64,000 nucleotides of DNA from NCBI GenBank assembly GCA_018664825.1, contig JABJNO010000017.1:163011-227010 (forward strand), given 5' to 3'. Origin of the DNA: Candidatus Parcubacteria bacterium (GTDB lineage: Bacteria > Patescibacteriota > Patescibacteriia > UBA1558 > GWA2-36-10). How positions within the stretch are numbered: position 1 is the stretch's first letter; the number at the start of each line of letters is the position of its first letter. Below the pieces are notes generated by a model, which had not been told where the DNA came from, ran no database searches, and saw only the letters and a program-made list of their open reading frames with translations. Below, piece by piece: positions 42,263 through 64,000 of this stretch. The position numbers and the translations under genes are program-made.

Positions 42263-42290
42263 TCAAAAGGAGGCCTTTTCCGTTAAGACT

Positions 42291-43373
42291 TTGTCTTTCA
42301 CCGTCAAACCTTTTCACTTTTCCGGAGGAAAAATCATGAATAAGATTCTACCCATTCCCCCTCATTTCAATCCGTCCCAGGCTAGCGAAGCCTATCGCAA
42401 TCCCTACCAAGAGCTGTTTGTAGCCGCTCAAAAGTGGGCTCGTGATCACGGATTGACCTCAGCTGGCGCTGACAAAAAGAGGGTCTGTTTGATGCCGATC
42501 GATACCCAAAACACCTTTTGCCTGCCCGACTTCGAGCTCTTTGTAGCTGGTGCGAGTGGCAATGGTGCTGTCGATGACAATATCCGTCTGTGTGAGTTTA
42601 TCTATCGCAACCTCGGTACTATTACCGAGATCTGTCCGACTATGGACACGCACAAGCTCATGCAAATCTTTCACCAGATGTTTTGGGTGAATGAAAACGG
42701 AGAACATCCCGAACCGATGACTATCATCAGTTTGGATGATGTCAAGACTGGTGTCTGGAAGGTCAATCCCAAGATCGCCGTAAGTGTTGCCAATGGCAAC
42801 TACGCTGGTCTCCAACGTCATGCTTTGCACTACGTCACTGAGCTTACCAATGCTGGCAAGTATCCACTCATCATCTGGCCCTTCCACGCCATGCTGGGTG
42901 GAATCGGTCATGCTTTGGCGAGTGTGATAGAAGCAGCTTGCTTCTTCCACGCTACCGCTCGCGGTATGGATACTGGCTTCGAGATCAAGGGAGGCAATCC
43001 GCTTTCTGAGAACTACTCTGTTCTTCGTCCGGAAGTACTCACCACTGATGGTGGCAATCCTATCGGACAAAAGAATACGACTTTCATCGAAAAGCTGTTG
43101 TCGTCCGACGTGCTGATCATTGCAGGACAAGCCAAAAGCCATTGTCTGGCCTGGACTATTCAGGATCTCTTGGATGAGATTTTGGCCCAGGATCCCAGTC
43201 TGGCGAAAAAGGTTTACATCCTGTTGGACTGCACTTCTCCTGTCGTCATTCCTGGTGTGATTGATTTCACTCCTCAGGCCGACGAAGCCTTCCAGCGCTT
43301 TGCTGATGCTGGTATGCATATCGTCAACTCGACCGACCCGATCACTGATTGGCCCGACATCGACTTGGGCTAA
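42291..43373 (+). CDS. Isochorismatase-family hydrolase (nicotinamidase PncA-like), unusually long at 360 aa.
   Basis: LMPIDTQNTFC (catalytic Asp motif) and AGQAKSHCLAWTIQD (catalytic Cys motif). Confidence 0.65.
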   Translation: MSFTVKPFHFSGGKIMNKILPIPPHFNPSQASEAYRNPYQELFVAAQKWARDHGLTSAGADKKRVCLMPIDTQNTFCLPDFELFVAGASGNGAVDDNIRLCEFIYRNLGTITEICPTMDTHKLMQIFHQMFWVNENGEHPEPMTIISLDDVKTGVWKVNPKIAVSVANGNYAGLQRHALHYVTELTNAGKYPLIIWPFHAMLGGIGHALASVIEAACFFHATARGMDTGFEIKGGNPLSENYSVLRPEVLTTDGGNPIGQKNTTFIEKLLSSDVLIIAGQAKSHCLAWTIQDLLDEILAQDPSLAKKVYILLDCTSPVVIPGVIDFTPQADEAFQRFADAGMHIVNSTDPITDWPDIDLG

Positions 43374-43438
43374 GTGTTTCATTTTCTTTATTGATCAATC
43401 GATCAATATAAACTTTTCTTAAAACAAGGAGGAGCAAA

Positions 43439-44227
43439 ATGAGCTCACCCAACGTTAGTGATCTTTTCCAGACTGCTGCTGAAGAAGGCGAATTGTCTGC
43501 TGGTACCATGCAAGTTTTGCAGGTAGCCGACATTGGCGCCAAAATTCAGGGAGCCCTGGGAATTGGTGTCGATCAGTTTGAATCCAGCGAAACTACGCTA
43601 GTCACTCTGATGCCGGACGATTCTGGTAGCATCCGTTTTGCAAACAACACTCAGTTGATGCGAGATGGTCACAACTTGGTACTCGACTCTTTGTCGGACA
43701 CCAAGCAAGCCGACAACATCCTGGCTATGACCCGTTATCTCAATGGAGAAGTTCTCTTTCCTTACGGTCCACTGGCATCTGCCGTCCGTATGGATCAGGG
43801 CAACTACAATCCCAATCAGGGTACTCCGCTCTATGATGAGTCGGTAGTCTTGCTCGGCGCTGTCCTGGCCAAAGCTCAGGAATTTGCCGATGCTGGAATC
43901 ATGGCTCGGACAATCACCCTACTCATCTCCGACGGAGCTGATCAGCATTCTCGACACCACGGTGCGGCTGACGTCGCAAAATTGGTTGCCGACATGCTGA
44001 GTCAAGAACGCCATATCATCGCTGCCATGGGTATCGATGATGGTCACGGTACTGATTTCCACCAGATTTTTGCTGCTATGGGTATTCCCGCCGAGTGGAT
44101 TCTCACTCCGGGTACCGATGCTAGTGAAATCCGAGCGGCTTTCAATACTTTCTCCAAGTCGGCTGTTCGTGCTAGCCAAGGTGCTGGTAGTTTTTCCCAG
44201 ACTGCAATGGGAGGCTTCGGCGCTTAA
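43439..44227 (+). CDS. vWA-domain protein (TerY-like).
   Basis: MIDAS motif LMPDDSGSI (DxSxS) with downstream Thr and Asp positions. Size ~260 aa, typical of TerY. Terminator 44246..44285. Confidence 0.65.
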   Translation: MSSPNVSDLFQTAAEEGELSAGTMQVLQVADIGAKIQGALGIGVDQFESSETTLVTLMPDDSGSIRFANNTQLMRDGHNLVLDSLSDTKQADNILAMTRYLNGEVLFPYGPLASAVRMDQGNYNPNQGTPLYDESVVLLGAVLAKAQEFADAGIMARTITLLISDGADQHSRHHGAADVAKLVADMLSQERHIIAAMGIDDGHGTDFHQIFAAMGIPAEWILTPGTDASEIRAAFNTFSKSAVRASQGAGSFSQTAMGGFGA

Positions 44228-44398
44228 CCAAAACCAACAACGGTGGAGTGTGTACCAAAAGGTGCACACTCCACTACTCTATTTTTAGAAAAGTGTTACC
44301 AAATACTTTGGTGATAATTTTCTTACCTTAAATATTTTGAGGTAATGTGTTCGTTTACAAATGTTCAACAATCAACCACCACTCAAAAGGAGAAAAAG

Positions 44399-44995
44399 AT
44401 GTTTGATCATGGAATGCCCAGTAAAATAGTTTGGAATGGTTTCTACAAAGTAGAGCTAATCGAAATCCCTGGAGCTCCTCATCCCCTCGAAATCATCCAT
44501 GCTACTGACTCTGTCAGCGTCCTATTTTACAACCTTGCCGAGCGTTATGCCCTGCTGGTCCGCCAGCCCCGTATCGCTATGGCAACTGATAAAAATCCCG
44601 AAGGCATGATCACCGAAACAGTTGCTGGTCGCTTTGACCTCAAAATCGGTGCTCGTGGCCTGATCGTCAAGGAAGCTCTCGAAGAAGCTGGTGTCGAAAT
44701 CACCGAAGGCCAAATCGAAATGCTCAACAACGGTCAGCCTATGGCTCTCACCGCTGGATGTAGCACTGAAAAAGCCTATCTGGCTATCTGTGAAATCAAT
44801 GCAACTATGATCGAGGCTCAGGAAAGAGTCTTTGGCGTCAAAGACGAAGGCGAAGAGATCGAAAGAATCTTTATCCCCTTTGCTGATCTGGAAGAATACG
44901 TCTGTGAAGACCTGCGTGTCTTTACTCTCATCCAGTACCTACTCAGCAAGCTGACGACCAAGGCTATCACCAGGCTCATCGACGATGTCGTATAA
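44399..44995 (+). CDS. Nudix-fold hydrolase (ADP-ribose pyrophosphatase-like).
   Basis: ETVAGRFD...KEALEEAGVEI matches the REuxEExGu half of the Nudix box. SD AAAGGAG upstream of ATG at 44399. Confidence 0.5.
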   Translation: MFDHGMPSKIVWNGFYKVELIEIPGAPHPLEIIHATDSVSVLFYNLAERYALLVRQPRIAMATDKNPEGMITETVAGRFDLKIGARGLIVKEALEEAGVEITEGQIEMLNNGQPMALTAGCSTEKAYLAICEINATMIEAQERVFGVKDEGEEIERIFIPFADLEEYVCEDLRVFTLIQYLLSKLTTKAITRLIDDVV

Positions 44996-45029
44996 ACTTT
45001 CCAAACCCCTTAACACAAGGAGAATTCAC

Positions 45030-46280
45030 ATGGACAGACCAATCATCAAATCCCTGATGGACTTGGATTTTTACAAGCTCACCATGGGACAGTTGATATT
45101 TCTCATGTACGCTCACATTCCAGTGACTTTCAGTTTTATCAATCGTAGCATTGACGTGCAACTTCCAAAGCATATCAATGTCGATGAACTGCGCGAACAA
45201 CTGGAGCATGCTCGTACTCTGCGTATCAACCCCGATGAACTTGGCTGGCTGGTCAGTAGCACAAGTATTTCTGGAAAACGAATCTTACAAGATCCGTATC
45301 TGAAATTCCTGTCTACTCTGCGCTTGCCAGAGTTCAACCTCGAAGTTGATGATGATAGAAGATTGCACCTGCAATTTTATGGCCCCTGGTCAACAGTCGT
45401 TTACTGGGAGACCATTGCCCTCTCAATCATCAATGAGATGTGGTGTCAGAGCCAGATGAAGGATATGAGTCGCTTCGAACGCGACTTGATTTTGACCGAA
45501 GGCAAGATGCGTCTAGGAAAAAAGATAGCACTTCTCAATCAACCTCAATGTGAAGGCCTGACTTTTTCTGACTTCGGTACCCGTCGTCGTTTTTCTGGCG
45601 ATTGGCAGTCGTATGTAGTTGACGCTATGGCCAATGAGCTGACCCAAGCAAAATTCAGGGGAACTTCAAATGTTCGCCTGGCTATGGATCACCATCTCCG
45701 ACCAATCGGTACTTCGGCTCACGAATTACCGATGATCATGAGCGGTATTATGCACAAAAACGATGACTCTATCCGAGCTTCCAACCAGCAGGTTTTGACC
45801 GACTGGTGGAATCTTTACGGACATGAGCTGTCTATTTTCTTGCCTGATACCTATGGTACCAAGTTTTTCTTTGACAACCTGACTCATGAACAGGTAGTCA
45901 ATTGGAGAGGCTTCCGCCATGACAGTGGTGATGCTATCGAGTTTGGCGAAAAGGTCATTTCCTTTTATCAGTCTCATGACGTCGATCCTCGTGAAAAGAT
46001 AGTTGTTTTCAGTGATGGACTTGATATTGAAAAAATTATCAAGTTCTATGGTCATTTCAAGGGTCGCATCGACACCGATAATGGTTGGGGTACTACTCTG
46101 ACCAATGACATGGGATTACGTACCTTGTCTCTGGTAGTCAAAGCTACCGAGGCCTGTGGTCATGGCTTGGTCAAATTGTCTGACAATCTGGCCAAAGCTA
46201 CTGGTAACCCCACTGATGTTGAACGCTTCAAAAAGATCTTTGGTCACACCGTGACCACTCGTACTGAGTGTAAGGTCTAA
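45030..46280 (+). CDS. pncB: Nicotinate phosphoribosyltransferase (NAPRTase family).
   Basis: N-terminal LMDLDFYKLTMGQ and SDFGTRRRFS motifs. SD AAGGAG upstream of ATG at 45030. Confidence 0.75.
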   Translation: MDRPIIKSLMDLDFYKLTMGQLIFLMYAHIPVTFSFINRSIDVQLPKHINVDELREQLEHARTLRINPDELGWLVSSTSISGKRILQDPYLKFLSTLRLPEFNLEVDDDRRLHLQFYGPWSTVVYWETIALSIINEMWCQSQMKDMSRFERDLILTEGKMRLGKKIALLNQPQCEGLTFSDFGTRRRFSGDWQSYVVDAMANELTQAKFRGTSNVRLAMDHHLRPIGTSAHELPMIMSGIMHKNDDSIRASNQQVLTDWWNLYGHELSIFLPDTYGTKFFFDNLTHEQVVNWRGFRHDSGDAIEFGEKVISFYQSHDVDPREKIVVFSDGLDIEKIIKFYGHFKGRIDTDNGWGTTLTNDMGLRTLSLVVKATEACGHGLVKLSDNLAKATGNPTDVERFKKIFGHTVTTRTECKV

Positions 46281-46401
46281 CACCTGTGGTGGGTAGAACA
46301 AAACTCTACCCACCACTCTTTTCTCAAGTCACCAAAACTTTGGTGATTTAAAAAAGGAAAATGTTCATTTACAATCAAGGTTTAAAACAAAGGAGAAGGC
46401 G

Positions 46402-47373
46402 ATGATTAAGTACCTACTTGCCTATCGTGAGATGGGTGAACTAGCCAAAGCTCTTGGCGAGTCAATGGCAACTCAAGACTCTACAACCCTAGTACCCAAA
46501 CACATCGAATGGAATAGGTTTGAAAACAACTACCCCAACCTCTTTATACCCAAGGTAGAAGAGATCGATGGCAGTGATGTAGTTTTTCTGGCCAATTTGG
46601 AAAAACCGGAAACTATTTTTGAACAACTAGCCATCATCCATGCTCTGCCTCGTTATGGTGTCCGCTCCCTGACTATCGTCCTACCATATTTCCCTACAGG
46701 AACTATGGAAAGAGTCGACAACGAAGGTCAGGTTGCTACTGCCATGACTCTGGCTCGGCTACTTTCAGCTACACCCTTGACTATGAATGGTCCTGCTCGG
46801 ATTGTCATCTTTGACATCCATGCCTTACCTGAACGCTTTTATTTTGGTGACGCAGTGATACCTCAATTGGTATCGGCTATCCCTTTGCTAAAAAGCCGAC
46901 TGGTAAAATTTGCCGAGGAAACCGATGATCCTCTTGCTATCTGTTTTCCGGACGAAGGCGCCAGAAAAAGATTTGGCAACATGTTCCCTGGTTACCCGCA
47001 GATTATTTGTGACAAAATTCGCGATGGCAATTCTAGAAATGTAGTCATAAAAGAAGGCGATCCTCGTGGTTACCACGTAGTGATTGTCGATGATCTGGTA
47101 ATTAGTGGTGGCACTACCAATGAGTGCAAAAAAGTACTCTTTGCCAATGGAGCCGCTGCTGTAAGTGCTTATGTCACTCATCCTGCATTTCCTCAAAAAA
47201 GTTGGAAACGCTTCATCGAGCGTGATCCTGAAGGATTGAATTTCTCAAACTTCTGGATTACAGACTCTTGTCCAAATACGGTCAGTGAGATCTTTTCTTA
47301 CAACAAGCATCAGGGCCATGGTCCTTTTGAAGTTTTGTCTCTGGTAGACCCTCTACTGGAAATGCTTAGTTGA
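46402..47373 (+). CDS. prs: Ribose-phosphate pyrophosphokinase-like PRTase-fold enzyme. Atypical.
   Basis: PRPP/ribose-5-P binding loop VVIVDDLVISGGT and overall Prs architecture. The canonical catalytic flexible loop (PYxGYARQDR) is replaced by PYFPTGTMERVDNEGQ. Confidence 0.65.
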   Translation: MIKYLLAYREMGELAKALGESMATQDSTTLVPKHIEWNRFENNYPNLFIPKVEEIDGSDVVFLANLEKPETIFEQLAIIHALPRYGVRSLTIVLPYFPTGTMERVDNEGQVATAMTLARLLSATPLTMNGPARIVIFDIHALPERFYFGDAVIPQLVSAIPLLKSRLVKFAEETDDPLAICFPDEGARKRFGNMFPGYPQIICDKIRDGNSRNVVIKEGDPRGYHVVIVDDLVISGGTTNECKKVLFANGAAAVSAYVTHPAFPQKSWKRFIERDPEGLNFSNFWITDSCPNTVSEIFSYNKHQGHGPFEVLSLVDPLLEMLS

Positions 47374-47433
47374 TTTGATCTCATCAAACCATCTCTTGTC
47401 TAAAACAAGAATACTCAAACGAGGAGATAAACA

Positions 47434-48396
47434 ATGAAAAAACCTGGAATCTTGGAAAAAGATCAGTGCGAGGCTATTATTGGCCTAGCAGCAAGCTCAC
47501 TCTATGAATACTGTGAACATCATGGTATTCACTATGTAGTCACTGGATCTTCCGGTGGTTTGGATAGTGCTGTCACTCTAGCCTTGGCTCAACGAGCCTG
47601 CAAGATGGCCGCTGAGAATGACTTTGATCTCACCTCTGTGGGTTTGATCATGCCTTGTCATTCTGACGAGTCTGCCGAACGCCTCGGCAAGATGGTCATC
47701 GAAAAATTTGGTGCCGAACAGATCACTATTGATCTAACATCAAACTTTGACTATGCCACCAATCTAATTGATGGCACCAATAGCCAAATCACGCATATTC
47801 TCAGAACTACCGGCGGTGTTGATGCTATTGATCAGCTAGATTGGTCCAAGAATATTGCCCAAGGCAATATCAAAGCTCGTATGCGAATGATGTTTGGTAC
47901 TTACCACGTCGCTCGCATGATGAATGGGATGGTCCTATCTACTGACAACCTGTCTGAGTTTTGGATGGCCTTTTGGACTATCTGTGGTGATGTCGGCGAC
48001 TACGGCATGATCCAGAGCCTCCTCAAAGGTCTCGAACTTTACGACTTGGCTGATTGCCTGGGTGTACCCAAGGAAATCATCAACTCCAAACCCGATGATG
48101 GATTAAACGTCGGTAACGGTGATGAAGATCAACTGGGTGCTTCTTATCCAGTACTCGATCTAGTAATGATCGAGCTTATCCATCAGGGATTTGATCCCGA
48201 TGGCAGCCTCGACCAACTCATGACCCTACCTTCTGTCGAAGGTGTTGACCAAGACGTGGTCGTGAAATTGGCCAAACGTTGTTTGCGAGGTAGCTTCAAA
48301 CGACATGGTCCAATCGTACTTTCACGTGCTGAGCTTGGCTTAGCTGCAATTAAAAACCTTGACCTTGATATGATTCAAAATCATTTCAGGGACTAA
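47434..48396 (+). CDS. nadE: NH3-dependent NAD+ synthetase.
   Basis: PP-loop VTGSSGGLDSAV (SGGxDS). ~320 aa is typical for NadE. Confidence 0.8.
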   Translation: MKKPGILEKDQCEAIIGLAASSLYEYCEHHGIHYVVTGSSGGLDSAVTLALAQRACKMAAENDFDLTSVGLIMPCHSDESAERLGKMVIEKFGAEQITIDLTSNFDYATNLIDGTNSQITHILRTTGGVDAIDQLDWSKNIAQGNIKARMRMMFGTYHVARMMNGMVLSTDNLSEFWMAFWTICGDVGDYGMIQSLLKGLELYDLADCLGVPKEIINSKPDDGLNVGNGDEDQLGASYPVLDLVMIELIHQGFDPDGSLDQLMTLPSVEGVDQDVVVKLAKRCLRGSFKRHGPIVLSRAELGLAAIKNLDLDMIQNHFRD

Positions 48397-51164: not shown

Positions 51165-51239
51165 TGGCTCCGGGGGCAGGATTCGAACCTGCGATATCCA
51201 CGTTAACAGCGTGGCGTTGTACCACTCAACTACCCCGGA
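51165..51239 (-). tRNA. tRNA-Asn (anticodon GUU).
   Basis: Manual fold. Acceptor UCCGGGG/CCCCGGA, D-loop AGUGGUA, anticodon loop CUGUUAA, T-loop UUCGAAU, CCA. Confidence 0.85.
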
Positions 51240-51914: not shown

Positions 51915-53639
51915 TTAGTTGGTTATTGGCTCAGCAGCCTTCTGGTGAGCACGAGCACGTCTACGCAACTTTTCACCTTCAGTGATCTGAGCGACCTGCA
52001 TCTGGAGAAAATCTCCGATAAAGGTCTTTGTCACTGCTTCGTGGTCAGTCGGTAGACCAAACTCAGTCAAGGCCAAGATAGCCACTGTCTCTTGATAGCG
52101 AATCAGATAAGCATCTTTTACTTCACACCTGAACCACAACTTGTGACTACAGTTGAAAGTCAAAATGCCATTTTCGCGATCAAAAGTATATGCTTCACTG
52201 GAGCGAGGCATATAATCAAAGGCGAATTGCAGACCACTGCTACTACCTTTGACAGTCTTTCGCCTCTGACCCTTTGGACCTTGGACCGTGATAGGAGTGT
52301 GACCCTGCATCTCATCGGGTCGGACTCTATCCTTGCCCTTGGCACCAGACCCCTTGCCCGTGTCTTTGAGCTTGGGAGCTGACATCGCAGGATTATCCTG
52401 CGTAGCCTTGGGAGGCAAATCAGCATGACCTTTTCCGGTCGTGCCAAAAGCAAAATTCTCGATCAGGTCTTTGAGACCTCTTTGCTCAAGAATACCCTCG
52501 ACTACCGAAATAGCTACCAAACCAAGTCGCTGAAAGCGAGCCTCTTTGGAGCTATTTTGGATCTCACCCATGATCTCCTTGCCAACTTTGTTCCACCACT
52601 CTTCGATGCACATACACATGTCAACGAAGTTGTCGCTGTCCACAAACCGCTTACGGTCAGGATGGAGCTTGACGCGAGTAGCGGTGATTTCACCCTCAAA
52701 TATTCCTGATCTGAGAGCATCTATCGCTTCTTCGGGGAGGCCCAAAGATTTGACCTTGTCCCAAAAAGTCTTGGTAGTAAAACGAAATTCATCGTTTCGT
52801 TCACCAAAAAGTACCTTACCTCTCCGATCTTTCTTCTTGCCCTGCTTGGGGGCAATAAAAAGATCAAAGTAAGTAACTACTTTACTATCAGCTACCTCGA
52901 AAATCACCGGTTCGATAGGCTGGCCCTCAAAGCCAGATGCCTCAACCTTGTATGCCCTTTTGGCATTGGATTCATCGATATAATCAATATCAACGACCAC
53001 GCCACGCTTGTGCATGACTGTGCCAAAACGCTCCAAAATAGCGCCGTTGAGTTGATGAGGAGTCAGACGGGTAAGCTCCCTATCCTTGGTGATTTTCATC
53101 ACTCTCACCTGAGTACGCCAATCGACATAAATAGGCGTCCTGCCGCGAGCAGACCTCTTTTTGGAAGTCTCACGTCCAGGAGCATAGGTGTGCCACTTGA
53201 GCGGTGTCATGGGAATACCTTCCCCAACTACCAAGCCCTTGACCTCATCCGAGATAAACTTCCACTCGACATATGCATTGACGCCGTTTGCCTTTGCGCA
53301 AGACGTAAAGGTAAACATGTCACACTTATCGAGCGGAGAAATCAATCCCCGACCGAAACGACCAAGTTTTCCACTTGTCTTCATGGTCTGAAAAATCTGA
53401 CCAAGAGCCTGCTCAAACTTGTCCTTGGTGACACCTTCGCCGTCATCCATTACTTCGAGAGTCCGTTTTGAAAGATTCAGTTTGACTCGGATATTTTTGG
53501 CATTGGCATCTAGTCCATTTTGGATAATCTCCAAAATGAAATCCTGAAGATAAGGATAACACTGAGCGGCTGCCAAAAGCGCTCCTCCTAAATGTACACC
53601 AAGCTTACTTTCTCCAGCAGTCGCACGTCGAGCGTTCAT
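51915..53639 (-). CDS. GHKL-superfamily ATPase (MORC/MutL/HSP90-like Bergerat fold) with a Gly/Lys-rich linker and unknown C-terminal domain.
   Basis: Motif I ILEIIQNGLDANAKNIRV (ExxxNxxDA), motif II VMDDGEGV (DxGxG), G-rich motif III GKLGRFGRG. GC ~48%. Terminator 51880..51907. Start overlaps the upstream gene stop (ATGA). Confidence 0.65.
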   Translation of the reverse strand: MNARRATAGESKLGVHLGGALLAAAQCYPYLQDFILEIIQNGLDANAKNIRVKLNLSKRTLEVMDDGEGVTKDKFEQALGQIFQTMKTSGKLGRFGRGLISPLDKCDMFTFTSCAKANGVNAYVEWKFISDEVKGLVVGEGIPMTPLKWHTYAPGRETSKKRSARGRTPIYVDWRTQVRVMKITKDRELTRLTPHQLNGAILERFGTVMHKRGVVVDIDYIDESNAKRAYKVEASGFEGQPIEPVIFEVADSKVVTYFDLFIAPKQGKKKDRRGKVLFGERNDEFRFTTKTFWDKVKSLGLPEEAIDALRSGIFEGEITATRVKLHPDRKRFVDSDNFVDMCMCIEEWWNKVGKEIMGEIQNSSKEARFQRLGLVAISVVEGILEQRGLKDLIENFAFGTTGKGHADLPPKATQDNPAMSAPKLKDTGKGSGAKGKDRVRPDEMQGHTPITVQGPKGQRRKTVKGSSSGLQFAFDYMPRSSEAYTFDRENGILTFNCSHKLWFRCEVKDAYLIRYQETVAILALTEFGLPTDHEAVTKTFIGDFLQMQVAQITEGEKLRRRARAHQKAAEPITN

Positions 53640-54373
53640 GAATTCACCTTCCCGATTTGAGCTTTGAGCTCAGCCATGAAAATCTTGCGAGATTCTTTGC
53701 TGCAGAGAGCCAGAAGCATTCTGGCCAACTCTTGCAAACCATCATCTGGGATGCTGTTACGAAGTTCCCGACGCTCAGCGTCGCTAAACTTGTCGCTAAG
53801 TAAATACATTGCGACCGGCATCATTGCTTGAACCTGATGTCCGAGAACACCGATAGTTGCCTGGTGTCTTAGAGAATCCGGATCGTGAGACGATACCATG
53901 GGCCGAGTGGGCTTATTGGCTTCTTCCTTTTTCTTGTAAGGAGCCAAAAAACGATTCCACTTGTCCCTAGCACTTTGCCTAGAAGAAAATTTTTGTCTTC
54001 CAACCAACAATGCCAACAATGAATCATGAGCTTTGAATCCCAAGGATTCCTGAGCAAAATCAAATGTGACTTCGCCATCAGAAAAGATCTCCGCCAAACG
54101 ACGTACACATCGATGAATGGCCTTGAGCTCCTGGCAAAGATATCCTTGCCTTTCCAAAAAAACTCGGCATCGAACCAAATTTTCACCAATAGGCATGACA
54201 CTGCCTGTTACCCAACGGTAAACTGCGCGATCAACCATATTGGTATAGTCTGCCATGGGCTTTCGTGCCCCTTTGGCTGCTCTACCTGTTGCTAAAGTTT
54301 CACCATAAGCAATTAGGCATTCCTGGGTTGTACCGACGAATTTGTATCCGCCTGCATTGTTTCCATCATTCAT
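53636..54373 (-). CDS. Hypothetical protein (~245 aa) translationally coupled to the GHKL ATPase.
   Basis: SD AAGGAG 5 nt upstream of ATG at 54373. GC-rich like its partner. No motif recognised. Confidence 0.5.
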   Translation of the reverse strand: MNDGNNAGGYKFVGTTQECLIAYGETLATGRAAKGARKPMADYTNMVDRAVYRWVTGSVMPIGENLVRCRVFLERQGYLCQELKAIHRCVRRLAEIFSDGEVTFDFAQESLGFKAHDSLLALLVGRQKFSSRQSARDKWNRFLAPYKKKEEANKPTRPMVSSHDPDSLRHQATIGVLGHQVQAMMPVAMYLLSDKFSDAERRELRNSIPDDGLQELARMLLALCSKESRKIFMAELKAQIGKVNS

Positions 54374-54568
54374 CTCTTCTCCTTCCAAGGGTGTGAGGTG
54401 TTGACTATCTATTGTTTCTTGAAAAGCTATAACCAACTTATCAAAGAACCCTTATATATGAACGTAATTGTCCATAATACAACAATATAAAATAACATTT
54501 TTAGTAAAATCTGTCAACATTTAAAAAACTCCCAAAAAAGGGAGTTTTTTATAAATTACTGAGCAAAT

Positions 54569-59221: not shown

Positions 59222-59298
59222 TGGTGCGCCCAGAGGGATTCGAACCCCCGACCATCAGCTTAAAAGGCTGTTGCTCTACCAGGCTGAGCTATAGGCGC
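59222..59298 (-). tRNA. tRNA-Lys (anticodon UUU).
   Basis: Manual fold. Acceptor GCGCCUA/UGGGCGC, D-loop AGCCUGGUA, anticodon loop CUUUUAA, T-arm GGGGG-UUCGAAU-CCCUC, CCA. Confidence 0.8.
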
Positions 59299-59441: not shown

Positions 59442-60533
59442 ATGCCTGGCAAAATCGTACATCGGGCTTCACTGGCCTGGGAAAAATGGAGTCCATCCAA
59501 AATCAACACCGCTACATCCTGTCCTCTACGCTGCTATTATGAATATATGTTGCGTATGCGAGGTGAACGTTTCCCTTTGACCGTGTTTGGCTCTGCCTTG
59601 CACTATATGTTTGAAAAATTCTTCAAGGCTCACAAAAAAACCGGCAACTTCCCCTATCAGGAAGTCCGTAAATTCCAAAATGTCTGGAAAGGCTTTTGGT
59701 GGCGAGCAGTTGCAGGAAATCATGGTTTTTCCAACATGGGATCTGATCCCGAAGAAGTGCCCTGGAGAGACAGCGAACAAGTCGGACAACTCTTTGGATC
59801 AGGCTGGAATATTTTGGGTAAATTCTATGACCGCTATCAACCTTTTCGTATGGCTGGGAATATTCATATTCCCGAAAGAAGATTTACTTTTGATTTTTGT
59901 GGTTTGACCCTCAATGGAGTAATTGATCGCATCGATCTTTTTGATAACCATGCAGTCATCCTCGATTACAAAAGTAGAGTCTTCCCCAAACACGAACAAA
60001 TGACCGGCACTCAACTGACTGCCTACCAACTAGCCTATCAACAATACCTACGCAATCATATCGGCCAAGGCCGACCTTTGCAGAGTATGCAAGTCTATGG
60101 CTACTGGAAAGATGCTGTCCAAGATCTCCCTCTCAGGGATGATTATCAAATTGGTATGCTATTTTACTATATGTTGGAAGCTAGCGAATATTATCGTAGT
60201 ATCCTCACCGGACGTCCTGTCCGCAGAGAAATCATCGAACGCTTTCGATTTTTCCCTGAAGAGGATATTGAAACTGGTAATATCTCGCCTCGGCTACCTC
60301 GTGGTAATCACTGCACCTACTGTGAAAACGTTGAGACCTGTCTAGCCTGGGAAAAGGGAGAACATGACACTCCTCGTAAGTTGTTTGCTGATAAGCACAA
60401 AGAAAAATGGGATGCCAAAACTCCCACTCAAATTTCTCTGCCTTTTCAGTTCAGCCCCGTTGTCCGCATCGGTGCAAACAATTTTTACAGATTAAAAAAT
60501 CTGCCCTTTATAGAGCAGACCTCCTTGTTCTAA
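59442..60533 (+). CDS. PD-(D/E)xK nuclease of the RecB/Cas4-like family with probable Fe-S Cys cluster.
   Basis: GVIDRIDLFDNHAVILDYKS (D...D/ExK core), N-terminal Cys (SCPLRC) plus C-terminal CTYCENVETC. GC-rich relative to flanks. SD AAGGAGG. Terminator 60546..60580. Confidence 0.65.
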   Translation: MPGKIVHRASLAWEKWSPSKINTATSCPLRCYYEYMLRMRGERFPLTVFGSALHYMFEKFFKAHKKTGNFPYQEVRKFQNVWKGFWWRAVAGNHGFSNMGSDPEEVPWRDSEQVGQLFGSGWNILGKFYDRYQPFRMAGNIHIPERRFTFDFCGLTLNGVIDRIDLFDNHAVILDYKSRVFPKHEQMTGTQLTAYQLAYQQYLRNHIGQGRPLQSMQVYGYWKDAVQDLPLRDDYQIGMLFYYMLEASEYYRSILTGRPVRREIIERFRFFPEEDIETGNISPRLPRGNHCTYCENVETCLAWEKGEHDTPRKLFADKHKEKWDAKTPTQISLPFQFSPVVRIGANNFYRLKNLPFIEQTSLF

Positions 60534-60564
60534 ATCAAACCCCTTCAATTTTTTGGAGGGGTTT

Positions 60565-61098
60565 TTATCTTTTCCAAAAATTATCAAAAAATGTATCTAC
60601 ACTTGATATGATCAATGCCTTGCTTACCAAACCACTGCCAGCCAATTTCATTCTCTTTTCTAGATGGATATAATCCTGACCATGACTAAAACCCAAAACT
60701 CTATGAGCAAAATTATTTCCTTCTATAGCTCCTGTATATTTATCACCCACCTTTATTTCTACTTCTCCCAAATTGCTCTCCAACATTATACTAAAAATAT
60801 TTTGATCAAGATTTATAGCTTCGCCCTCTATCTCTACACCTGGACCAACCTCACTAAATACATTGTCTATACCAGCTGACAATCTAGCTCGACTATCTTC
60901 TCTCAAATAATTCATCCTACTTTTTAAAACCTCTATTTCATCTTCTATATATTGTTTTTGGGTTATAAAATTTCTGCCCTCTCGAGCAAGGCCCCGATCT
61001 TTTTTTAGACCTCCTAAGTTGTCCGAATATTTAGCCACCTTATCTTTGATGCTAGCTAATTCTTCTTCTATTAAATTTTTACAAATTGGATCTTTCAT
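60565..61098 (-). CDS. Paralog 1 of a tandem small-protein family (177 aa).
   Basis: N-terminal MKDPICKNL and internal IKVGDKY...VLGF. Family resemblance to the six genes upstream. Confidence 0.5.
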   Translation of the reverse strand: MKDPICKNLIEEELASIKDKVAKYSDNLGGLKKDRGLAREGRNFITQKQYIEDEIEVLKSRMNYLREDSRARLSAGIDNVFSEVGPGVEIEGEAINLDQNIFSIMLESNLGEVEIKVGDKYTGAIEGNNFAHRVLGFSHGQDYIHLEKRMKLAGSGLVSKALIISSVDTFFDNFWKR

Positions 61099-61100
61099 AT

Positions 61101-61652
61101 TTATATTCTTGCAAAACCATCAAACCAAGTTTCATCAAAACTTGTTGCAAATGCTTTATTATTATATTTTTCATTTTCGCCTTTATACAACAAAATAGGA
61201 TCACTATCCTCCTCTCCTTTTTGCTTTGTAAAACCAACTACAATAAACTCATCTCCTGGAAAAATCTGAAAAAAACCAAAAGCCCCTACAACTTTAAATC
61301 TATCTCCTGTATTTAATTTCTCAAATAATTCCTGTCCAAGGCCATCTCTACCCATAGATCTGTTTATCATCAAAGTATTTGGATCAGGAGTCAGCTTAAT
61401 ACCTCTCCCCTCTATATGTTCATATTTTTGCCTCATCAACTTTAGCTTATCAGAATTAAAAAGTAATGAACCAAAGGCAAGCCTAAATCTCATAAGCTCC
61501 TGATGAAAATTACTAATACTTATATGCGCATCTTCAATAGCTGTAATATCTCTATCTTTTTGACCACTTTCAAAATAATCATCAAAATCTTTTTTGTATG
61601 AAAGTACATGATCAAATTTTACTTTTAATTTGTCACAAATTTTTTTATCCAT
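61101..61652 (-). CDS. Paralog 2 (183 aa).
   Basis: MDKKICDKL N-terminus (identical to paralog 5). NTGDRFKVVGAFGF / FIVVGF motifs. Confidence 0.5.
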   Translation of the reverse strand: MDKKICDKLKVKFDHVLSYKKDFDDYFESGQKDRDITAIEDAHISISNFHQELMRFRLAFGSLLFNSDKLKLMRQKYEHIEGRGIKLTPDPNTLMINRSMGRDGLGQELFEKLNTGDRFKVVGAFGFFQIFPGDEFIVVGFTKQKGEEDSDPILLYKGENEKYNNKAFATSFDETWFDGFARI

Positions 61653-61657
61653 ATATT

Positions 61658-62176
61658 TTATAATAATCCAAAATCTCTCTCTGGCCCAACTTTATAAGAA
61701 GATAGGCCATCTTCATCGATAGTATAATGTATTTTTGTTATCCTACCCCTGGCTTCTACAATCAACTCTTTAGTATGCACTCTAAAGCCAACTATTTTTA
61801 TTCTCATTTTAGCCGGCTCATATTCTTTATTGTTATACTTCATTCTCAGGCCCTTGGCTGCTCTCATCTCATCACCAATCCTAAAAACATAACCATCAAT
61901 CTCCACGCTCTCAGCAAAAGAAGCATAAACCTCGGTGTTCTTTATAGTCATATATCTTTGTCCAGAAGTAGACCTCAGGGTAGCCTGCCAACTTTCTAAT
62001 ATTCCATCTCCATCATAGTCCATCCTGCGATACAATCTACTCCTGATTTGTTCAAAACCATCTACAAATTTTCCTATTTGTTCTGATTTATCAAAAGCAT
62101 CATCAAAATCAACTAGCCAAGACTTAGCCTTGTTTAGCTCCCCTCTCCATTCTTTACAAAGTTCTGCTTTTGTCAT
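61658..62176 (-). CDS. Paralog 3 (172 aa).
   Basis: MTKAELCKEW N-terminus. FRIGDEM...RIKIVGF motif. Confidence 0.5.
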   Translation of the reverse strand: MTKAELCKEWRGELNKAKSWLVDFDDAFDKSEQIGKFVDGFEQIRSRLYRRMDYDGDGILESWQATLRSTSGQRYMTIKNTEVYASFAESVEIDGYVFRIGDEMRAAKGLRMKYNNKEYEPAKMRIKIVGFRVHTKELIVEARGRITKIHYTIDEDGLSSYKVGPERDFGLL

Positions 62177-62179
62177 ATT

Positions 62180-62653
62180 TTATATCTTCTTATAATCATC
62201 AGCTATGGTGTAGAGATACTGAATAGCATAAAGTTTTTCTTTTTTATCAAGGTACTGAACTATAACTTTATTTGTGCTCAATTCAAAGCCTACTATTTTG
62301 ATTTTAACTGAGCCAGTTGGCCCTGGACCAGTTTCTATTGTATCTACAAAAACATCTCCTATTCTATATATCCTACCTGCATGAGCCAATCGTTTATTGA
62401 TACTTGCCTCAAATGTTTGCCGAAGGTCACTATCACAGAAAAATTTTTTACCACTTGAAACATACTGCCCATCTTCCTCATGATCATCTAGGCAAGAAGC
62501 TAATCTATTCCCAAGCTCTTGTTTCAACTCCAATAGCGTTGTCAAAGCTCTACTGTCTTTGCAATTCTCCAGATATTTAATAAAATAGTCTCTATCATAT
62601 TTTATTTTTTCTAGGTTTCGCAACCATTTTTTACAAAATTCTATTTTTGTCAT
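62180..62653 (-). CDS. Paralog 4 (157 aa).
   Basis: MTKIEFCKKW N-terminus. YRIGDVF...KIKIVGF motif. Confidence 0.5.
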   Translation of the reverse strand: MTKIEFCKKWLRNLEKIKYDRDYFIKYLENCKDSRALTTLLELKQELGNRLASCLDDHEEDGQYVSSGKKFFCDSDLRQTFEASINKRLAHAGRIYRIGDVFVDTIETGPGPTGSVKIKIVGFELSTNKVIVQYLDKKEKLYAIQYLYTIADDYKKI

Positions 62654-63153
62654 ATTTTTTCCATAGCATAAAGTGCTGTATCAAGGTGCATAGCAAAAAA
62701 AGTACCTTCTTTTTCGGGATGCTCCATTATAGGCATGCCACTAAACAATTCAAATGCCAAAATTTTATATCGTTTTTTAGCTTCTTTTTCTTTTCTTTCT
62801 TCTGACTCATCTTTAAATTTTGAATCCAAATATTCCTGATTTGCCTTCAAGACATCACCCAATAGAAAAACACCTTCTCTAAAAGACGATCTCTTAGCAC
62901 AACTTGCTCTCAGCTCTTCTTTAGAATCTTCGGCACTAGGAAATTTTACACCACTTGGCGTCCTGCTAATACCTAGCACCAACTCATCTTGACACTCTTT
63001 TATTCTTTTAGCAAAACTTTCATTTCCATGCCTAAACAGTTTAGTAAAATCCTTATTGTCTAAACACCTTTGACGGTCTTCCTCAAAAATACGACTATCA
63101 CGATTTAAATTACCTAAATAATCTCTCAATTTGTCACAAATTTTTTTATCCAT
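62650..63153 (-). CDS. Paralog 5 (~167 aa, start refined to MDKKICDKL).
   Basis: MDKKICDKL N-terminus. FLLGDVL...KILAF motif. Confidence 0.5.
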   Translation of the reverse strand: MDKKICDKLRDYLGNLNRDSRIFEEDRQRCLDNKDFTKLFRHGNESFAKRIKECQDELVLGISRTPSGVKFPSAEDSKEELRASCAKRSSFREGVFLLGDVLKANQEYLDSKFKDESEERKEKEAKKRYKILAFELFSGMPIMEHPEKEGTFFAMHLDTALYAMEKI

Positions 63154-63157
63154 ATAT

Positions 63158-63640
63158 TTATATTTTTTTATAAACATCTCCAAAGAGATTATCACTCACA
63201 AAAATTACTCTACCATTTTTAAGTTTTAGCAAAGCTTGTCGACGACTTTTTATATATTTATCCTCAACAAAACCTACTAGCTCAAAAACATCGGTACCCA
63301 AAACTTCGTCTCTCAGCAAGCCACCTCTTTTGACAAGTTCAAATTTATCACCAACCCGTATCACTTCTCCGCTTGCCAACTTTTTTCTCCTACGAATACT
63401 AGCAGCCACCTCATGCCCTTTGTCTACCAACTTAAATTTTTGTGATATAGAACCATTTTCAAATGTATCATACATTGATTTCAGTTTTCTTATGTTCATT
63501 TCTACGGTTGCCCAAAATTTATGAATATTTCTAAAATCTCCTGTTTCTCTAGTTGTATTCATTTGCAAATCAAAATTATCCAAATGATTTTTAATTTGGC
63601 TAAGTCTCAATAACATTTCTTGGCAAGATATTGTATTCAT
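63158..63640 (-). CDS. Paralog 6 (160 aa).
   Basis: MNTISCQEM N-terminus. IRVGDKF...ELVGF motif. Confidence 0.5.
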   Translation of the reverse strand: MNTISCQEMLLRLSQIKNHLDNFDLQMNTTRETGDFRNIHKFWATVEMNIRKLKSMYDTFENGSISQKFKLVDKGHEVAASIRRRKKLASGEVIRVGDKFELVKRGGLLRDEVLGTDVFELVGFVEDKYIKSRRQALLKLKNGRVIFVSDNLFGDVYKKI

Positions 63641-63641
63641 A

Positions 63642-63980
63642 TTATTTCAATTTAAATGCGCTATAAAAATGCTGTGGAGTATAAGCTACGATTCTGCCAT
63701 CAAAGCTGACTACTGGGCGCTTACCTTGAAAACCGACGAGTTCTACTTTTTTGGTAGTTTTTACAAAAGGCCGATCTTTTCCTATCCTTTCTATTTCTTT
63801 TTTTACCATAAGCAATATATCCCCCATGCGAAACTTTCTACCATTGATGACCATGATTCTAATGCCAGAAGTCCTAACCGTATTATACTCTTGAAAATGA
63901 TCATTAAAACGTCTACCATCGTGTACTTCGGCAAAAATATCCTGATAATGTTCATGCATATGATTTTTATCTCTATTCAT
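63642..63980 (-). CDS. Paralog 7 (112 aa, shorter). A further ORF continues to the window edge.
   Basis: FRMGDIL...VELVGF motif. Confidence 0.45.
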   Translation of the reverse strand: MNRDKNHMHEHYQDIFAEVHDGRRFNDHFQEYNTVRTSGIRIMVINGRKFRMGDILLMVKKEIERIGKDRPFVKTTKKVELVGFQGKRPVVSFDGRIVAYTPQHFYSAFKLK

Positions 63981-64000
63981 ATCTTTGAGCCGATGACTTG

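What the first reader, a model, noticed from the sequence alone, without database searches (positions are those of the whole stretch)
60565..64000. Tandem array of at least 7 divergent paralogous small proteins with a shared C-terminal (R/K)xGDx(F/L)...(K/R)(I/V)x(L/I)VGF motif
Seven consecutive minus-strand ORFs (112-183 aa) with 1-5 nt gaps or short overlaps continue past the window end. Pairs share N-termini (MDKKICDKL twice, MTK(A/I)E(L/F)CK(E/K)W twice), all with a Cys at position 6-7. All share a C-terminal beta-like motif (YRIGDVF..KIKIVGF, FRIGDEM..RIKIVGF, IRVGDKF..ELVGF, FRMGDIL..VELVGF, IKVGDKY..VLGF, NTGDRF..IVVGF, LLGDVL..KILAF). The middle of each protein is highly diversified. 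This resembles an immunity-protein or anti-defence array under diversifying selection. It lies convergent to a GC-shifted Cas4-like nuclease and close to tRNA-Lys. I do not recognise a described family matching it.
Basis: seen in the sequence. Interest (0 to 1): 0.75.

Follow-up and report, generated by a model that had tools for sequence, protein, structure and literature searches.

The report
Fast-evolving small-protein gene array, Parcubacteria
A tiny-genome Parcubacteria bacterium carries 17 back-to-back genes, seven of them in this window, for small, rapidly diverging proteins of an undescribed family; they look like a repertoire of binding proteins, but their function is unknown.

Summary
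The seven minus-strand ORFs are the last seven genes of a 17-gene co-directional array in a Candidatus Parcubacteria genome. The array lies between dnaB-ybaB-recR and a PD-(D/E)XK nuclease.

Sixteen genes encode 146-186 aa soluble proteins. Each has an N-terminal helical domain whose cysteine is kept in 47 of 47 relatives, plus a C-terminal SH3-like barrel carrying the GD...VGF motif. Gene 1 is two copies of that barrel module alone.

The module is homologous to an ~88-aa repeat present 3-14 times in giant proteins, most of which carry an AAA_5 ATPase domain (hhalign E 7e-10).

Pfam, NCBIfam, PHROGs, PADLOC and PDB sequences gave no match. No whole-protein structural match appeared in PDB or BFVD.

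The family is very rare: about 25 credible hits among 1.84 billion representatives.

Array members evolve 5-10 times faster than their neighbours. Their dN is 0.32-0.95 against 0.06-0.14, and identity is 26-59% against 78-90%. This was replicated at a second locus type.

The immunity or anti-defence reading is only partly supported. Diversification is shown, but there is no toxin, phage or mobile-element context, and single copies sit inside housekeeping operons.

My best guess, at about 0.38, is a repertoire of intracellular binders under conflict-type selection.

The parts
60537..60564 (.). GC-rich hairpin (12-bp stem) with T runs in the 31-nt gap between the convergent nuclease gene and the last array gene. 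Probable bidirectional terminator marking the 3' end of the array operon.
   Evidence: terminator-like site on the + strand. Its function is inferred.
60565..61098 (-). Array gene 17 (p17, 177 aa = P0003, HON36_03790). Cys-helix N-domain plus SH3-like unit, with Cys6, VGD and LGF. No counterpart in the syntenic array L008; 54-57% orthologues P0006 and P0007 exist elsewhere.
61101..61652 (-). Array gene 16 (p16, 183 aa). Starts MDKKICDKL and carries TGD...VVGF. Reciprocal-best orthologue q17 is 43% identical.
61658..62176 (-). Array gene 15 (p15, 172 aa = P0002, HON36_03800). This paralog gave the high-confidence AlphaFold2 model: helices 3-34, 41-52 and 59-69, then a beta domain at 71-153.
62180..62653 (-). 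[not shown]
62650..63153 (-). Array gene 13 (p13, 167 aa = P0001, HON36_03810), taken from the ATG start. Its first 26 nt and the 9 nt upstream are identical to those of p16.
63158..63640 (-). Array gene 12 (p12, 160 aa = P0012). The repeat HMM built only from giant proteins hits it at E 5e-9.
63642..64000 (-). Array gene 11 (p11 = P0004, HON36_03820), cut by the window end. The full protein is 154 aa and starts MTKQEACEK. Ten more array genes (p10 to p1) and then divergent dnaB lie beyond the window.
59442..60533 (+). Neighbour, not shown to be a functional part: a convergent PD-(D/E)XK nuclease (363 aa, Cas4/AddB-like C-terminal Cys cluster). It flanks the array only in the two closely related genomes.

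Best explanation
**Shown.**
- The window holds the 3' seven genes of a 17-gene, single-strand, tightly packed array (probably one operon) in a Candidatus Parcubacteria genome.
- Gene 1 encodes two copies of an ~75-88 aa SH3-like beta-barrel unit. It evolves at the pace of the housekeeping neighbours.
- Genes 2-17 each encode a soluble 149-183 aa protein. It has an N-terminal three-helix domain starting with an invariant cysteine and one copy of the same SH3-like unit (GD turn ... VGF strand).
- That unit is homologous to a repeat found 3-14 times in giant proteins, most of which carry an AAA_5 (MoxR/CobS-type) ATPase domain.
- The array members keep only Cys, GD, GF and a few hydrophobic positions. 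Everything else has diverged: pI runs from 5.0 to 9.9, and the GD-to-GF loop from 12 to 35 residues.
- Divergence is 5-10 times faster than in flanking genes, with gene gain, loss and truncation between related genomes.

**Inferred mechanism.**
- Each paralog is an intracellular binding protein built on a fixed scaffold. The helical domain and barrel core are constant, and the Cys supplies a shared chemistry or contact.
- The variable helix faces and the hypervariable GD-GF loop give each copy a different target.
- The array is therefore a co-expressed repertoire of specificities. It is maintained by conflict-type (arms-race) diversifying selection and by birth-and-death duplication.
- Functionally this is analogous to 'supernumerary immunity' arrays that neutralise diverse incoming protein toxins or effectors.
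- The targets and the role of the Cys are unknown.
For: - **Anatomy.** Gaps run from a 4-nt overlap to 5 nt, with no internal terminators apart from the end hairpin.
- **Soluble proteins.** No hydrophobic segment is present (maximum KD19 1.49), and the Cys is preceded by charged residues at positions 2-28.
- **Homology to the giants' repeats.** HMMER gives E 6e-20 (P0013), 7e-15 (P0015) and 8e-10 (P0018). hhalign gives probability 96.6%, E 7e-10. The reverse HMM, built from the giants only, hits array members and splits gene 1 into two units.
- **Conservation.** Cys 47/47, GD 43/47, GF 45-46/47.
- **Rate, locus type 1** (window organism against L008). DnaB 90%, RecR 90%, YbaB 86%, L21 82%, nuclease 78% and gene 1 79% identical. 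Collinear reciprocal-best array pairs are 26-59% identical. dN is 0.32-0.95 against 0.06-0.14, with dS about 0.85-1.5 throughout. One member is truncated to 74 aa, and several lack 1:1 partners.
- **Rate, locus type 2** (L009 against L018). Flanks are 63-84% identical, members 28-40%.
- **Known analogue.** Tandem arrays of divergent paralogs are a recognised signature of immunity repertoires in the SUKH paper (PMC3113570).
Against: - No toxin, secretion-system, phage, integrase or defence gene lies within 10 kb of any of the loci. PADLOC and PHROGs are empty.
- Both array loci are syntenic among housekeeping genes. Single members sit inside housekeeping operons: NUDIX-X-DNA_alkylation, and queH-X-queA with an overlapping stop and start. 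This fits a physiological role better than an immunity island.
- An absolutely invariant Cys is not explained by a pure binder model.
- Gene-wide dN/dS stays below 1 (about 0.3-0.7), dS is near saturation, and orthology of the most divergent pairs is uncertain. Relaxed constraint cannot be separated from positive selection.
- The domain's only other home is cytoplasmic giant proteins, most with an AAA_5 ATPase domain. That hints at a machine-associated role.
- No expression or interaction data exist.
Confidence: 0.38

Rival explanations
1. Alternative adaptors or co-factors of a conserved machine. The SH3-like unit is a docking module for a MoxR/CobS-type AAA_5 ATPase with its VWA partner, or for the conserved double-unit protein encoded by gene 1. 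Each paralog would bring a different client to that machine.
For: - The unit otherwise occurs only as C-terminal repeats of giant proteins. Most of these carry an AAA_5 domain, and P0015 lies beside a VWA/CobT_C gene.
- Gene 1 (two units, no Cys-helix) heads the operon and is conserved at the housekeeping rate of 79%.
- Tight operon packing suggests co-expression with it.
Against: - No AAA_5 or VWA gene lies near any array, and none was seen in the 64-kb window.
- The second locus type (L009, L018) and the singletons have no gene-1-like partner.
- The giants examined come from GC 0.47-0.49 contigs, so from different organisms. Co-occurrence in one genome is untested.
- Very fast divergence is unusual for subunits of a conserved machine.
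Confidence: 0.2
2. Nucleic-acid- or nucleotide-linked housekeeping factors. The SH3-like barrels (Tudor, KOW, PWWP or Sso7d-like) would bind RNA, DNA or modified nucleotides. The paralogs would be specialised regulators or chaperones in replication, repair or tRNA modification, with the Cys acting as a redox or thiol-transfer residue.
For: - Neighbours at every locus examined are information-processing or nucleotide-sanitising genes: dnaB-ybaB-recR and a PD-(D/E)XK nuclease; NUDIX-Ham1...PPIase-SerRS; NUDIX-X-DNA_alkylation; queH-X-queA.
- A NUDIX gene lies one or two genes upstream in three of the five contexts.
- The closest folds are chromatin, RNA or DNA readers.
Against: - Genomes of these candidate-phyla bacteria are dominated by such genes, so adjacency is weak evidence.
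- The NUDIX genes at the two contexts are not orthologous (29% identity).
- pI ranges from 5.0 to 9.9, so many members are acidic.
- Sixteen or more co-expressed, fast-diverging copies is unlike any known housekeeping nucleic-acid binder.
- The fold match is generic, at Z no higher than 7.5.
Confidence: 0.15
3. Exported effectors. The conserved N-terminal Cys-helix is a recognition handle for a non-classical export route. The variable remainder would act on the host cell of this presumably episymbiotic bacterium, so host-parasite conflict would drive the diversification.
For: - The pattern of a conserved N-terminus with a rapidly diversifying remainder, plus a large tandem repertoire, matches effector families in other symbionts (my own knowledge, not tested here).
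- Short identical 5' tracts between distant paralogs suggest that the N-terminus or 5' end is homogenised.
Against: - No signal peptide and no WXG100 or LXG Pfam match.
- No secretion-system gene lies nearby.
- The barrel core is conserved as well, so the variable part is not a swappable toxin cassette.
- The helical matches are non-specific.
Confidence: 0.12
4. Evolutionary debris. The array would be duplicated genes drifting under relaxed constraint with no current function, or mis-called ORFs.
For: - Gene-wide dN/dS of 0.3-0.7 fits partial relaxation.
- One copy in L008 is truncated to 74 aa.
Against: - Sixteen of the 16 Cys-helix genes are intact with near-constant length and architecture.
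- The Cys is kept in 47/47 members despite about 20% identity.
- The fold prediction is confident.
- The array persists with similar size (17 genes) in a second species with DnaB 90% identical.
- The sequence is essentially identical (3998/4000 nt) in independent metagenome assemblies.
- Reduced genomes rarely keep about 8.5 kb of junk.
Confidence: 0.04

Closest known systems
Tandem 'supernumerary immunity' arrays, such as SUKH-superfamily immunity paralogs of polymorphic toxin systems (Zhang, Iyer & Aravind 2011, PMC3113570)
   Same: - Several adjacent, strongly diverged paralogs of one small soluble protein family.
- Diversification of linked copies.
- An arrangement that the paper notes is rare in bacteria.
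- A possible reading as a repertoire against non-self toxins.
   Different: - No sequence relationship to SUKH or any Pfam immunity family.
- A different fold: helical domain plus SH3-like barrel.
- No adjacent toxin, CDI or nuclease-toxin gene in any locus.
- Larger (17 genes) and homogeneous in family.
- Syntenic among housekeeping genes.
- An invariant Cys.
SH3-like small beta-barrel domains (BAH, Tudor, PWWP, KOW, FeoA, CarD-N, VapX)
   Different: - No sequence-level match to any of these families in Pfam or PDB.
- Identity in the structural alignments is 8-20%.
- The match is at fold level only and carries no functional transfer.
C-terminal ~88-aa repeats of giant proteins, most carrying an AAA_5 (MoxR/CobS-type) ATPase domain (P0013, P0015, P0018, P0025, P0028, P0030, P0034); P0015 lies beside a VWA/CobT_C gene
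   Same: True homology of the barrel unit, with the same GxKVGD ... E(I/L)VGF ... (Y/F)FEKI signature. Gene 1 of the array is two such units. The singleton P0024 matches the repeat HMM at E 3.7e-15.
   Different: - The giants have 3-14 units fused to an ATPase (P0013 has no AAA_5 hit), and they lack the Cys-helix domain.
- The array proteins have one unit, a unique N-domain and no ATPase.
- The repeat itself is undescribed in Pfam, NCBIfam and PDB, so it supplies no known function.
Gre/DksA-type factors that bind the RNA polymerase secondary channel (coiled-coil hairpin plus small globular domain, about 150-160 aa)
   Same: Similar size and a crude architecture of a long N-terminal helical hairpin followed by a small globular domain. 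This resemblance is recalled from my own knowledge.
   Different: - No Pfam GreA/B or DksA match.
- The C-domain fold differs.
- I rejected it as a membership and keep it only as a remote analogy.

Membership tests
Polymorphic-toxin immunity repertoire (SUKH-like tandem immunity arrays) | Sequence or profile membership in a described immunity family (SUKH, Imm, SMI1/KNR4 and similar) | tested here: not met
   Pfam scans found nothing significant: seven window paralogs at E up to 1, and 21 repeat units at E up to 10. NCBIfam found nothing for three window paralogs and gene 1.
Polymorphic-toxin immunity repertoire (SUKH-like tandem immunity arrays) | Linkage of at least some arrays to a toxin or effector gene or its delivery system | tested here: not met
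   Gene lists within 10 kb of the loci L001-L009 and L017-L019 show only housekeeping genes plus a PD-(D/E)XK nuclease with no toxin architecture.
Polymorphic-toxin immunity repertoire (SUKH-like tandem immunity arrays) | Tandem, strongly diverged paralogs with accelerated evolution | tested here: met
   Seventeen genes at about 20% mutual identity. dN is 5-10 times that of the flanks in two independent locus pairs.
Polymorphic-toxin immunity repertoire (SUKH-like tandem immunity arrays) | Direct neutralising binding of a cognate toxin | not testable with these tools
   Needs biochemistry or co-expression assays. No candidate toxin has been identified.
SH3-like small beta-barrel fold | Five- to six-stranded partly open barrel superposable on known SH3, Tudor or KOW domains | tested here: met
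   [not shown]
Repeat unit of the giant proteins (most with an AAA_5 ATPase domain) | Significant profile similarity in both directions over the whole unit | tested here: met
   The small-family profile hits the giants with up to 11-14 stretches per protein and a whole-protein E of 6e-20. hhalign gives 96.6%, E 7e-10. The giants-only HMM hits array proteins at E 1.6e-14 to 2e-4.
MoxR/CobS AAA_5 with VWA system | An AAA_5 ATPase and a VWA partner encoded with, or in the same genome as, the array | tested here: inconclusive
   None lies in the 64-kb window or within 10 kb of any array. The rest of the 241-kb contig and the MAG could not be read.
Bacterial lipoprotein (N-terminal Cys) | Signal peptide with a hydrophobic h-region and a lipobox directly before the Cys | tested here: not met
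   The Cys is preceded by charged residues (MTKQEAC, MDKKIC). Its position varies from 2 to 28, and maximum 19-residue hydropathy is 1.49 or less.
Known anti-phage defence or phage anti-defence protein | Match to PADLOC or PHROGs models, or presence on viral contigs or structures | tested here: not met
   PADLOC and PHROGs give only scattered single hits at E above 0.002. BFVD Foldseek has a best E of 0.077. The viral-contig scan could not be run because the alignment was too divergent for pattern design.
WXG100/LXG type VII secretion substrates | Helical hairpin with a WxG or LxG motif and a Pfam match; EssC-type ATPase nearby | tested here: not met
   [not shown]
Diversity-generating retroelement target genes | A template/variable repeat pair and a reverse transcriptase nearby | tested here: not met
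   No long direct repeats other than the 26-35-nt 5'-end tracts. No reverse-transcriptase gene appears in the neighbourhood lists.

The most novel reading that the evidence does not exclude
The array is a previously unknown, lineage-restricted conflict system in which each paralog uses the invariant N-terminal cysteine for covalent or thiol-dependent chemistry. That chemistry could be trapping, modifying or sensing a target. The target would be selected by the paralog's hypervariable SH3-like surface. The recognition module would have been taken over from the repeats of giant MoxR-type ATPases of candidate-phyla bacteria. In effect this would be a germline-encoded repertoire of about 16-26 specificities in a bacterium with a very small genome.
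Probability: 0.1. Interest if true: 0.85.

Novelty: new variant of a known kind. Interest (0 to 1): 0.55.

Why it matters
Candidate-phyla bacteria have very small genomes. This lineage nevertheless keeps about 8.5 kb at this locus for co-directional, fast-diverging copies of one undescribed protein. It may keep more, since four contigs with members come from one sample. That points to strong, ongoing selection, most plausibly from interaction with hosts, competitors or phages. Almost nothing is known about such interactions in Parcubacteria.

The work also defines two new sequence modules. One is a Cys-helix N-domain. The other is an SH3-like repeat shared with giant proteins, most of them AAA_5 ATPases. 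It gives a simple evolutionary series: repeat, then singleton fusion, then expanded array.

If the repertoire reading is right, it offers a tractable entry point for finding the molecular targets in the conflicts of these bacteria. Sixteen small soluble proteins with one essential Cys make a manageable set. If the reading is wrong, the family is still a clean marker of a narrow Parcubacteria clade.

Tried and rejected
- **Known-family searches, all negative.**
  - Pfam on the seven window paralogs, the giants and 21 repeat units.
  - NCBIfam, PHROGs and PADLOC.
  - PDB sequence profiles for the whole family and for the repeat. These gave only coiled-coil noise and a non-significant RAD51C hit at E 0.023.
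- **Structure searches.**
  - BFVD has nothing below E 0.077.
  - The afdb50 library was unavailable.
- **Word-indexed protein searches.** They recovered only the same or near-identical genomes.
- **Collection scans.**
  - Scans using the family or repeat alignments failed because no conserved 7-10-column stretch exists.
  - A genome-contig scan with the flanking nuclease found only a Kerfeldbacteria homologue with no array.
  - Two metagenome-contig scans with gene 1 found nothing.
- **Rejected readings.**
  - Lipoprotein: no signal peptide or lipobox.
  - Diversity-generating retroelement target: no template repeat or reverse transcriptase.
  - Gre/DksA-like factor: no structural or sequence match.
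  - Bacterial intein-like or Hint domain: a single E 1.6 hit, and the helical N-domain is incompatible.
  - Pseudogene fragments: the ORFs are intact, predicted to fold and conserved.
  - Prophage or mobile island: the flanks are syntenic housekeeping genes, and array GC is slightly below the window mean.
- **Spurious hits.** P0019 (a protein with Thr-rich and 'KPGDKY' repeats) and P0027 (MBG repeats) in the exhaustive search were judged spurious low-complexity or repeat matches.
- **Literature.** Searches found no description of this family.

Full report
**1. Checking the observation**

The ORF listing shows seven consecutive minus-strand ORFs:

| Coordinates | Length |
|---|---|
| 60565-61098 | 177 aa |
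| 61101-61652 | 183 aa |
| 61658-62176 | 172 aa |
| 62180-62653 | 157 aa |
| 62650-63195 | 167 aa from the ATG at 63153 |
| 63158-63640 | 160 aa |
| 63642-63980 | 112 aa as listed |

- Gaps run from a 4-nt overlap to 5 nt.
- tRNA-Lys lies at 59222-59298.
- The convergent gene at 59442-60533 is a PD-(D/E)XK nuclease. PF12705 matches at E 6e-22, and the Cas4 model falls below its cut-off.
- GC is 0.44 for the nuclease, 0.386 for the window and 0.335 for the array.
- A stem-loop with T runs fills the 31-nt gap at 60537-60564.

**2. The array is larger than the window shows**

- A profile search returned the same proteins under the name Candidatus Parcubacteria bacterium (HON36_03790 to 03820), on contigs up to 241 kb.
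- The last ORF is really a 154-aa protein, P0004, that starts MTKQEACEK. The window end cuts it.
- Looking up P0004 in public assemblies gave the whole neighbourhood. Seventeen consecutive same-strand genes of 149-183 aa lie between dnaB-ybaB-recR (divergent) and the nuclease (convergent). ArgRS and a P-type ATPase follow, as in the window.
- Locus L001 matches the window at 3998 of 4000 bases.
- Loci L004 and L016 supply genes 1-11 and the 167-bp AT-rich dnaB/gene-1 intergenic region.

**3. Are they really paralogs?**

- Pairwise BLAST is mostly silent. Only a few pairs reach E 2e-4 to 5e-7.
- The multiple alignment of the 16 full-length Cys-helix proteins (genes 2-17) has four invariant columns: the N-terminal Cys, G, D and F. 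The G before F is nearly invariant.
- A 10-sequence profile was run exhaustively against 1.84 billion representative proteins. It found only 31 proteins at E up to 1e-3. About 20 of these are 155-180-aa proteins with the same layout, from other contigs.
- With members from related loci, 47 sequences give:
  - Cys 47/47;
  - G-D 43/47 each;
  - G-F 46/47 and 45/47;
  - length 146-186 aa;
  - Cys at residues 2-28;
  - Cys-to-GD spacing of 76-112 residues;
  - GD-to-GF spacing of 12-35 residues.
- No member of the window organism's array (p02-p17) has a hydrophobic segment. pI spans 5.0-9.9, and most have only the one Cys.
- So this is a real, extremely divergent family of soluble proteins. It is not a set of fragments of one gene.

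**4. Structure**

- AlphaFold2 on a 22-sequence alignment gave a confident model of the 172-aa paralog: pLDDT 89, pTM 0.75.
- The model has helices at 3-34, 41-52 and 59-69, followed by a beta domain at 71-153.
- BFVD had nothing below E 0.077.
- No solved structure in PDB and no predicted viral structure in BFVD combines the two domains.

**5. Where else the C-terminal module occurs**

- The exhaustive search also hit giant proteins, each with several matched stretches. The figures in the table are the per-protein domain hits in my own HMM run:

| Protein | Length | Matched stretches | AAA_5 domain |
|---|---|---|---|
| P0013 | 2127 aa | up to 14 | no |
| P0015 | 1363 aa | 9 | yes |
| P0018 | 1499 aa | 10 | yes |
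| P0025, P0028, P0030, P0034 | 838-1090 aa | 3-7 | yes |

- P0015 lies beside a 751-aa VWA/CobT_C gene.
- The repeat is about 88 aa long. Its pattern is F..sG..iE.t...E..GykVGD.L.........ei..AK.lEiVGF...g..iiQLDG........yFekie.
- A profile of 21 such units aligns to the small-family profile at 96.6% probability, E 7e-10.
- An HMM built from the giants alone detects array proteins at E 1.6e-14 to 2e-4. It resolves gene 1 into two units.
- Gene 1 (p01, 158 aa, no Cys) is therefore a bare double unit.
- The repeat has no Pfam, NCBIfam or PDB counterpart.
- Within the 64-kb window, only the seven array ORFs carry the module.

**6. Evolutionary dynamics**

- *Second genome, same locus.* L008 has the same synteny: dnaB-ybaB-recR, then 17 genes, then the nuclease.
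- *Flank identities between the two genomes*:
  - DnaB 90%
  - RecR 90%
  - YbaB 86%
  - L21 82%
  - nuclease 78%
  - gene 1 79%
- *Array members.* The Cys-helix members form collinear reciprocal-best pairs at only 26-59% identity: p03-q02, p04-q03, p05-q04, p07-q06, p10-q08, p15-q11 and p16-q17.
  - Others have no 1:1 partner.
  - q02 is truncated to 74 aa.
  - p17 has no counterpart in L008.
- *Substitution rates (Nei-Gojobori):*

| Genes | dN | dS |
|---|---|---|
| Flanks and gene 1 | 0.06-0.14 | about 0.85-1.5 |
| Array members | 0.32-0.95 | about 1.0-1.4 |

  - Array members therefore have a gene-wide dN/dS of about 0.3-0.7, against 0.05-0.16 for flanks and gene 1.
  - Caveats: dS is near saturation, and orthology of the most divergent pairs is uncertain.
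- *Second locus type.* This is NUDIX-Ham1, then 7 members (8 genes with the small Cys-rich membrane protein), then PPIase-SerRS. It occurs in two further contigs, L009 and L018 of GCA_003358065.1. It repeats the pattern: flanks 63-84% identical, members 28-40%.
- *Singletons.* Single members also exist. P0024 lies between a NUDIX gene and a DNA-alkylation-repair gene. P0031 lies between queH and queA, overlapping queA. P0024 matches the giants' repeat HMM best (E 3.7e-15), so it may be close to the ancestral form.
- *Short identical 5' tracts*.
  - p13 and p16 share 35 identical nucleotides across the junction and the first 26 nt of the ORF.
  - p10 and p11 share 27 of their first 28 nt.
  - p14 and p15 share 89% identity over 35 nt.
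  - The rest of each gene is saturated with change.
  - This suggests short-tract gene conversion or a nucleotide-level constraint on coupled translation starts.

**7. What it most likely is**

- *Shown:*
  - an operon-like array of co-directional, intact, soluble two-domain proteins;
  - a conserved scaffold (Cys, GD, GF) with everything else variable;
  - evolution much faster than the surroundings, with gene turnover;
  - a very narrow phyletic range;
  - a barrel module shared with giant proteins, most of them AAA_5 ATPases.
- *Inferred:*
  - The proteins are binders whose specificity resides in the variable helix faces and the length-variable GD-GF loop.
  - The array is a repertoire kept diverse by conflict-type selection. 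It is analogous to the supernumerary immunity arrays described for the SUKH superfamily (PMC3113570).
  - I put this at about 0.38.
- *Against it:*
  - No toxin, secretion, phage or defence gene lies near any locus.
  - The loci sit in housekeeping synteny, and singletons sit inside housekeeping operons.
  - The invariant Cys is unexplained.
  - Positive selection cannot be separated from relaxed constraint with two genomes per locus.
- *Rivals:*

| Rival reading | Probability |
|---|---|
| Adaptors for an AAA_5/VWA machine or for gene 1 | 0.20 |
| Nucleic-acid or nucleotide-linked housekeeping factors, suggested by NUDIX, Ham1, Que and DnaB neighbours and by Tudor/KOW-like folds | 0.15 |
| Exported effectors with an N-terminal recognition handle | 0.12 |
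| Drifting debris | 0.04 |

**8. Comparison with known systems, and novelty**

- The array works most like a tandem immunity or adaptor repertoire, but it fails the membership tests for immunity families. It has no family match and no toxin linkage.
- It is a member of the SH3-like fold class only at fold level.
- It is a true homologue of an undescribed repeat in giant proteins, most of them AAA_5 ATPases.
- Literature searches found no description.
- I rate it a new variant of a known kind: a tandem diversifying paralog repertoire built from a new domain architecture.
- Interest is 0.55. The feature is real, unusual for a reduced genome, and it defines two new modules, but its function is unresolved.

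Noticed in passing
window 61605-61658 vs 63106-63159; 62147-62181 vs 62624-62658; also L004 4247-4274 vs 4710-4737: Short tracts at the 5' ends of non-adjacent paralogs are identical or nearly so at the nucleotide level. p13 and p16 share 35 nt including the upstream junction, p14 and p15 share 89% of 35 nt, and p10 and p11 share 27 of 28 nt. The rest of each gene is about 20% identical at the protein level. This could be short-tract gene conversion or a constraint on coupled translation initiation.
   Followed up: partly
window 38506-48396 (+ strand), GC 0.44-0.49 against 0.33-0.39 around it: A GC-rich block encodes an NrtR-like NUDIX regulator, PP2C, four proteins with no Pfam match (622, 360, 262 and 216 aa), NAPRTase, a PRPP-synthetase-like protein and NAD synthase. 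This is an NAD salvage or reconstitution cluster. A similar cluster (NAPRTase, Pribosyltran, NAD synthase, NUDIX, ADP-ribosylglycohydrolase) lies directly upstream of the giant repeat protein P0013 in L013.
   Followed up: partly
window 51915-54436 (- strand), next to tRNA-Asn at 51165-51239: A 574-aa HATPase_c_3 (MORC/GHKL-type) protein overlaps a 266-aa protein with no Pfam match. Both lie in a local GC peak of 0.47. This may be an acquired two-gene module beside a tRNA.
   Followed up: no
L009 9223-9492 and L018 4888-5199: A small membrane-anchored or secreted Cys-rich protein (89-103 aa, 8 Cys, 65% identical between the two genomes) sits inside or at the end of the second type of array. 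It is far better conserved than the array members around it.
   Followed up: partly
L008 3901-4125: The counterpart of array gene 3 is truncated to 74 aa, leaving only the N-terminal Cys-helix. This is an example of decay within the array.
   Followed up: partly
L010 7086-14092; L013 10001-16384: Giant cytoplasmic proteins carry 3-14 copies of the same SH3-like unit. Most have an AAA_5 ATPase domain, and P0015 lies beside a 751-aa VWA/CobT_C gene. P0013 (2127 aa) has no AAA_5 hit and about 800 N-terminal residues with no Pfam match. The repeat is absent from Pfam, NCBIfam and PDB.
   Followed up: partly
L017 2912-3812; L018 465-1930; L009 5398-6987: A NUDIX hydrolase gene lies one or two genes upstream of family members, in an operon-like arrangement, in three of five genomic contexts. 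Ham1/ITPase lies between them in two. The NUDIX genes of the two contexts are not orthologous (29% identity).
   Followed up: partly
L008, L009, L017, L019 (all from sample ERR15087771, GC 0.31-0.33): Four contigs from one sample carry 17, 7, 1 and 1 members. If they belong to one organism, that genome holds at least 26 copies at four loci. I could not verify this.
   Followed up: no
L004 3765-4250 (array gene 9): Different pipelines call the start codon differently: TTG giving 161 aa, or ATG giving 150 aa with Cys at residue 2. An in-frame MTKAIMC start would match the family's usual N-terminus better.
   Followed up: no
window 5271-11610 (- strand): A 1461-aa protein with bacterial Ig-like and purple-acid-phosphatase-N domains is followed by a 604-aa CAP-domain (cysteine-rich secretory protein family) protein. 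They are likely large surface or secreted proteins.
   Followed up: no
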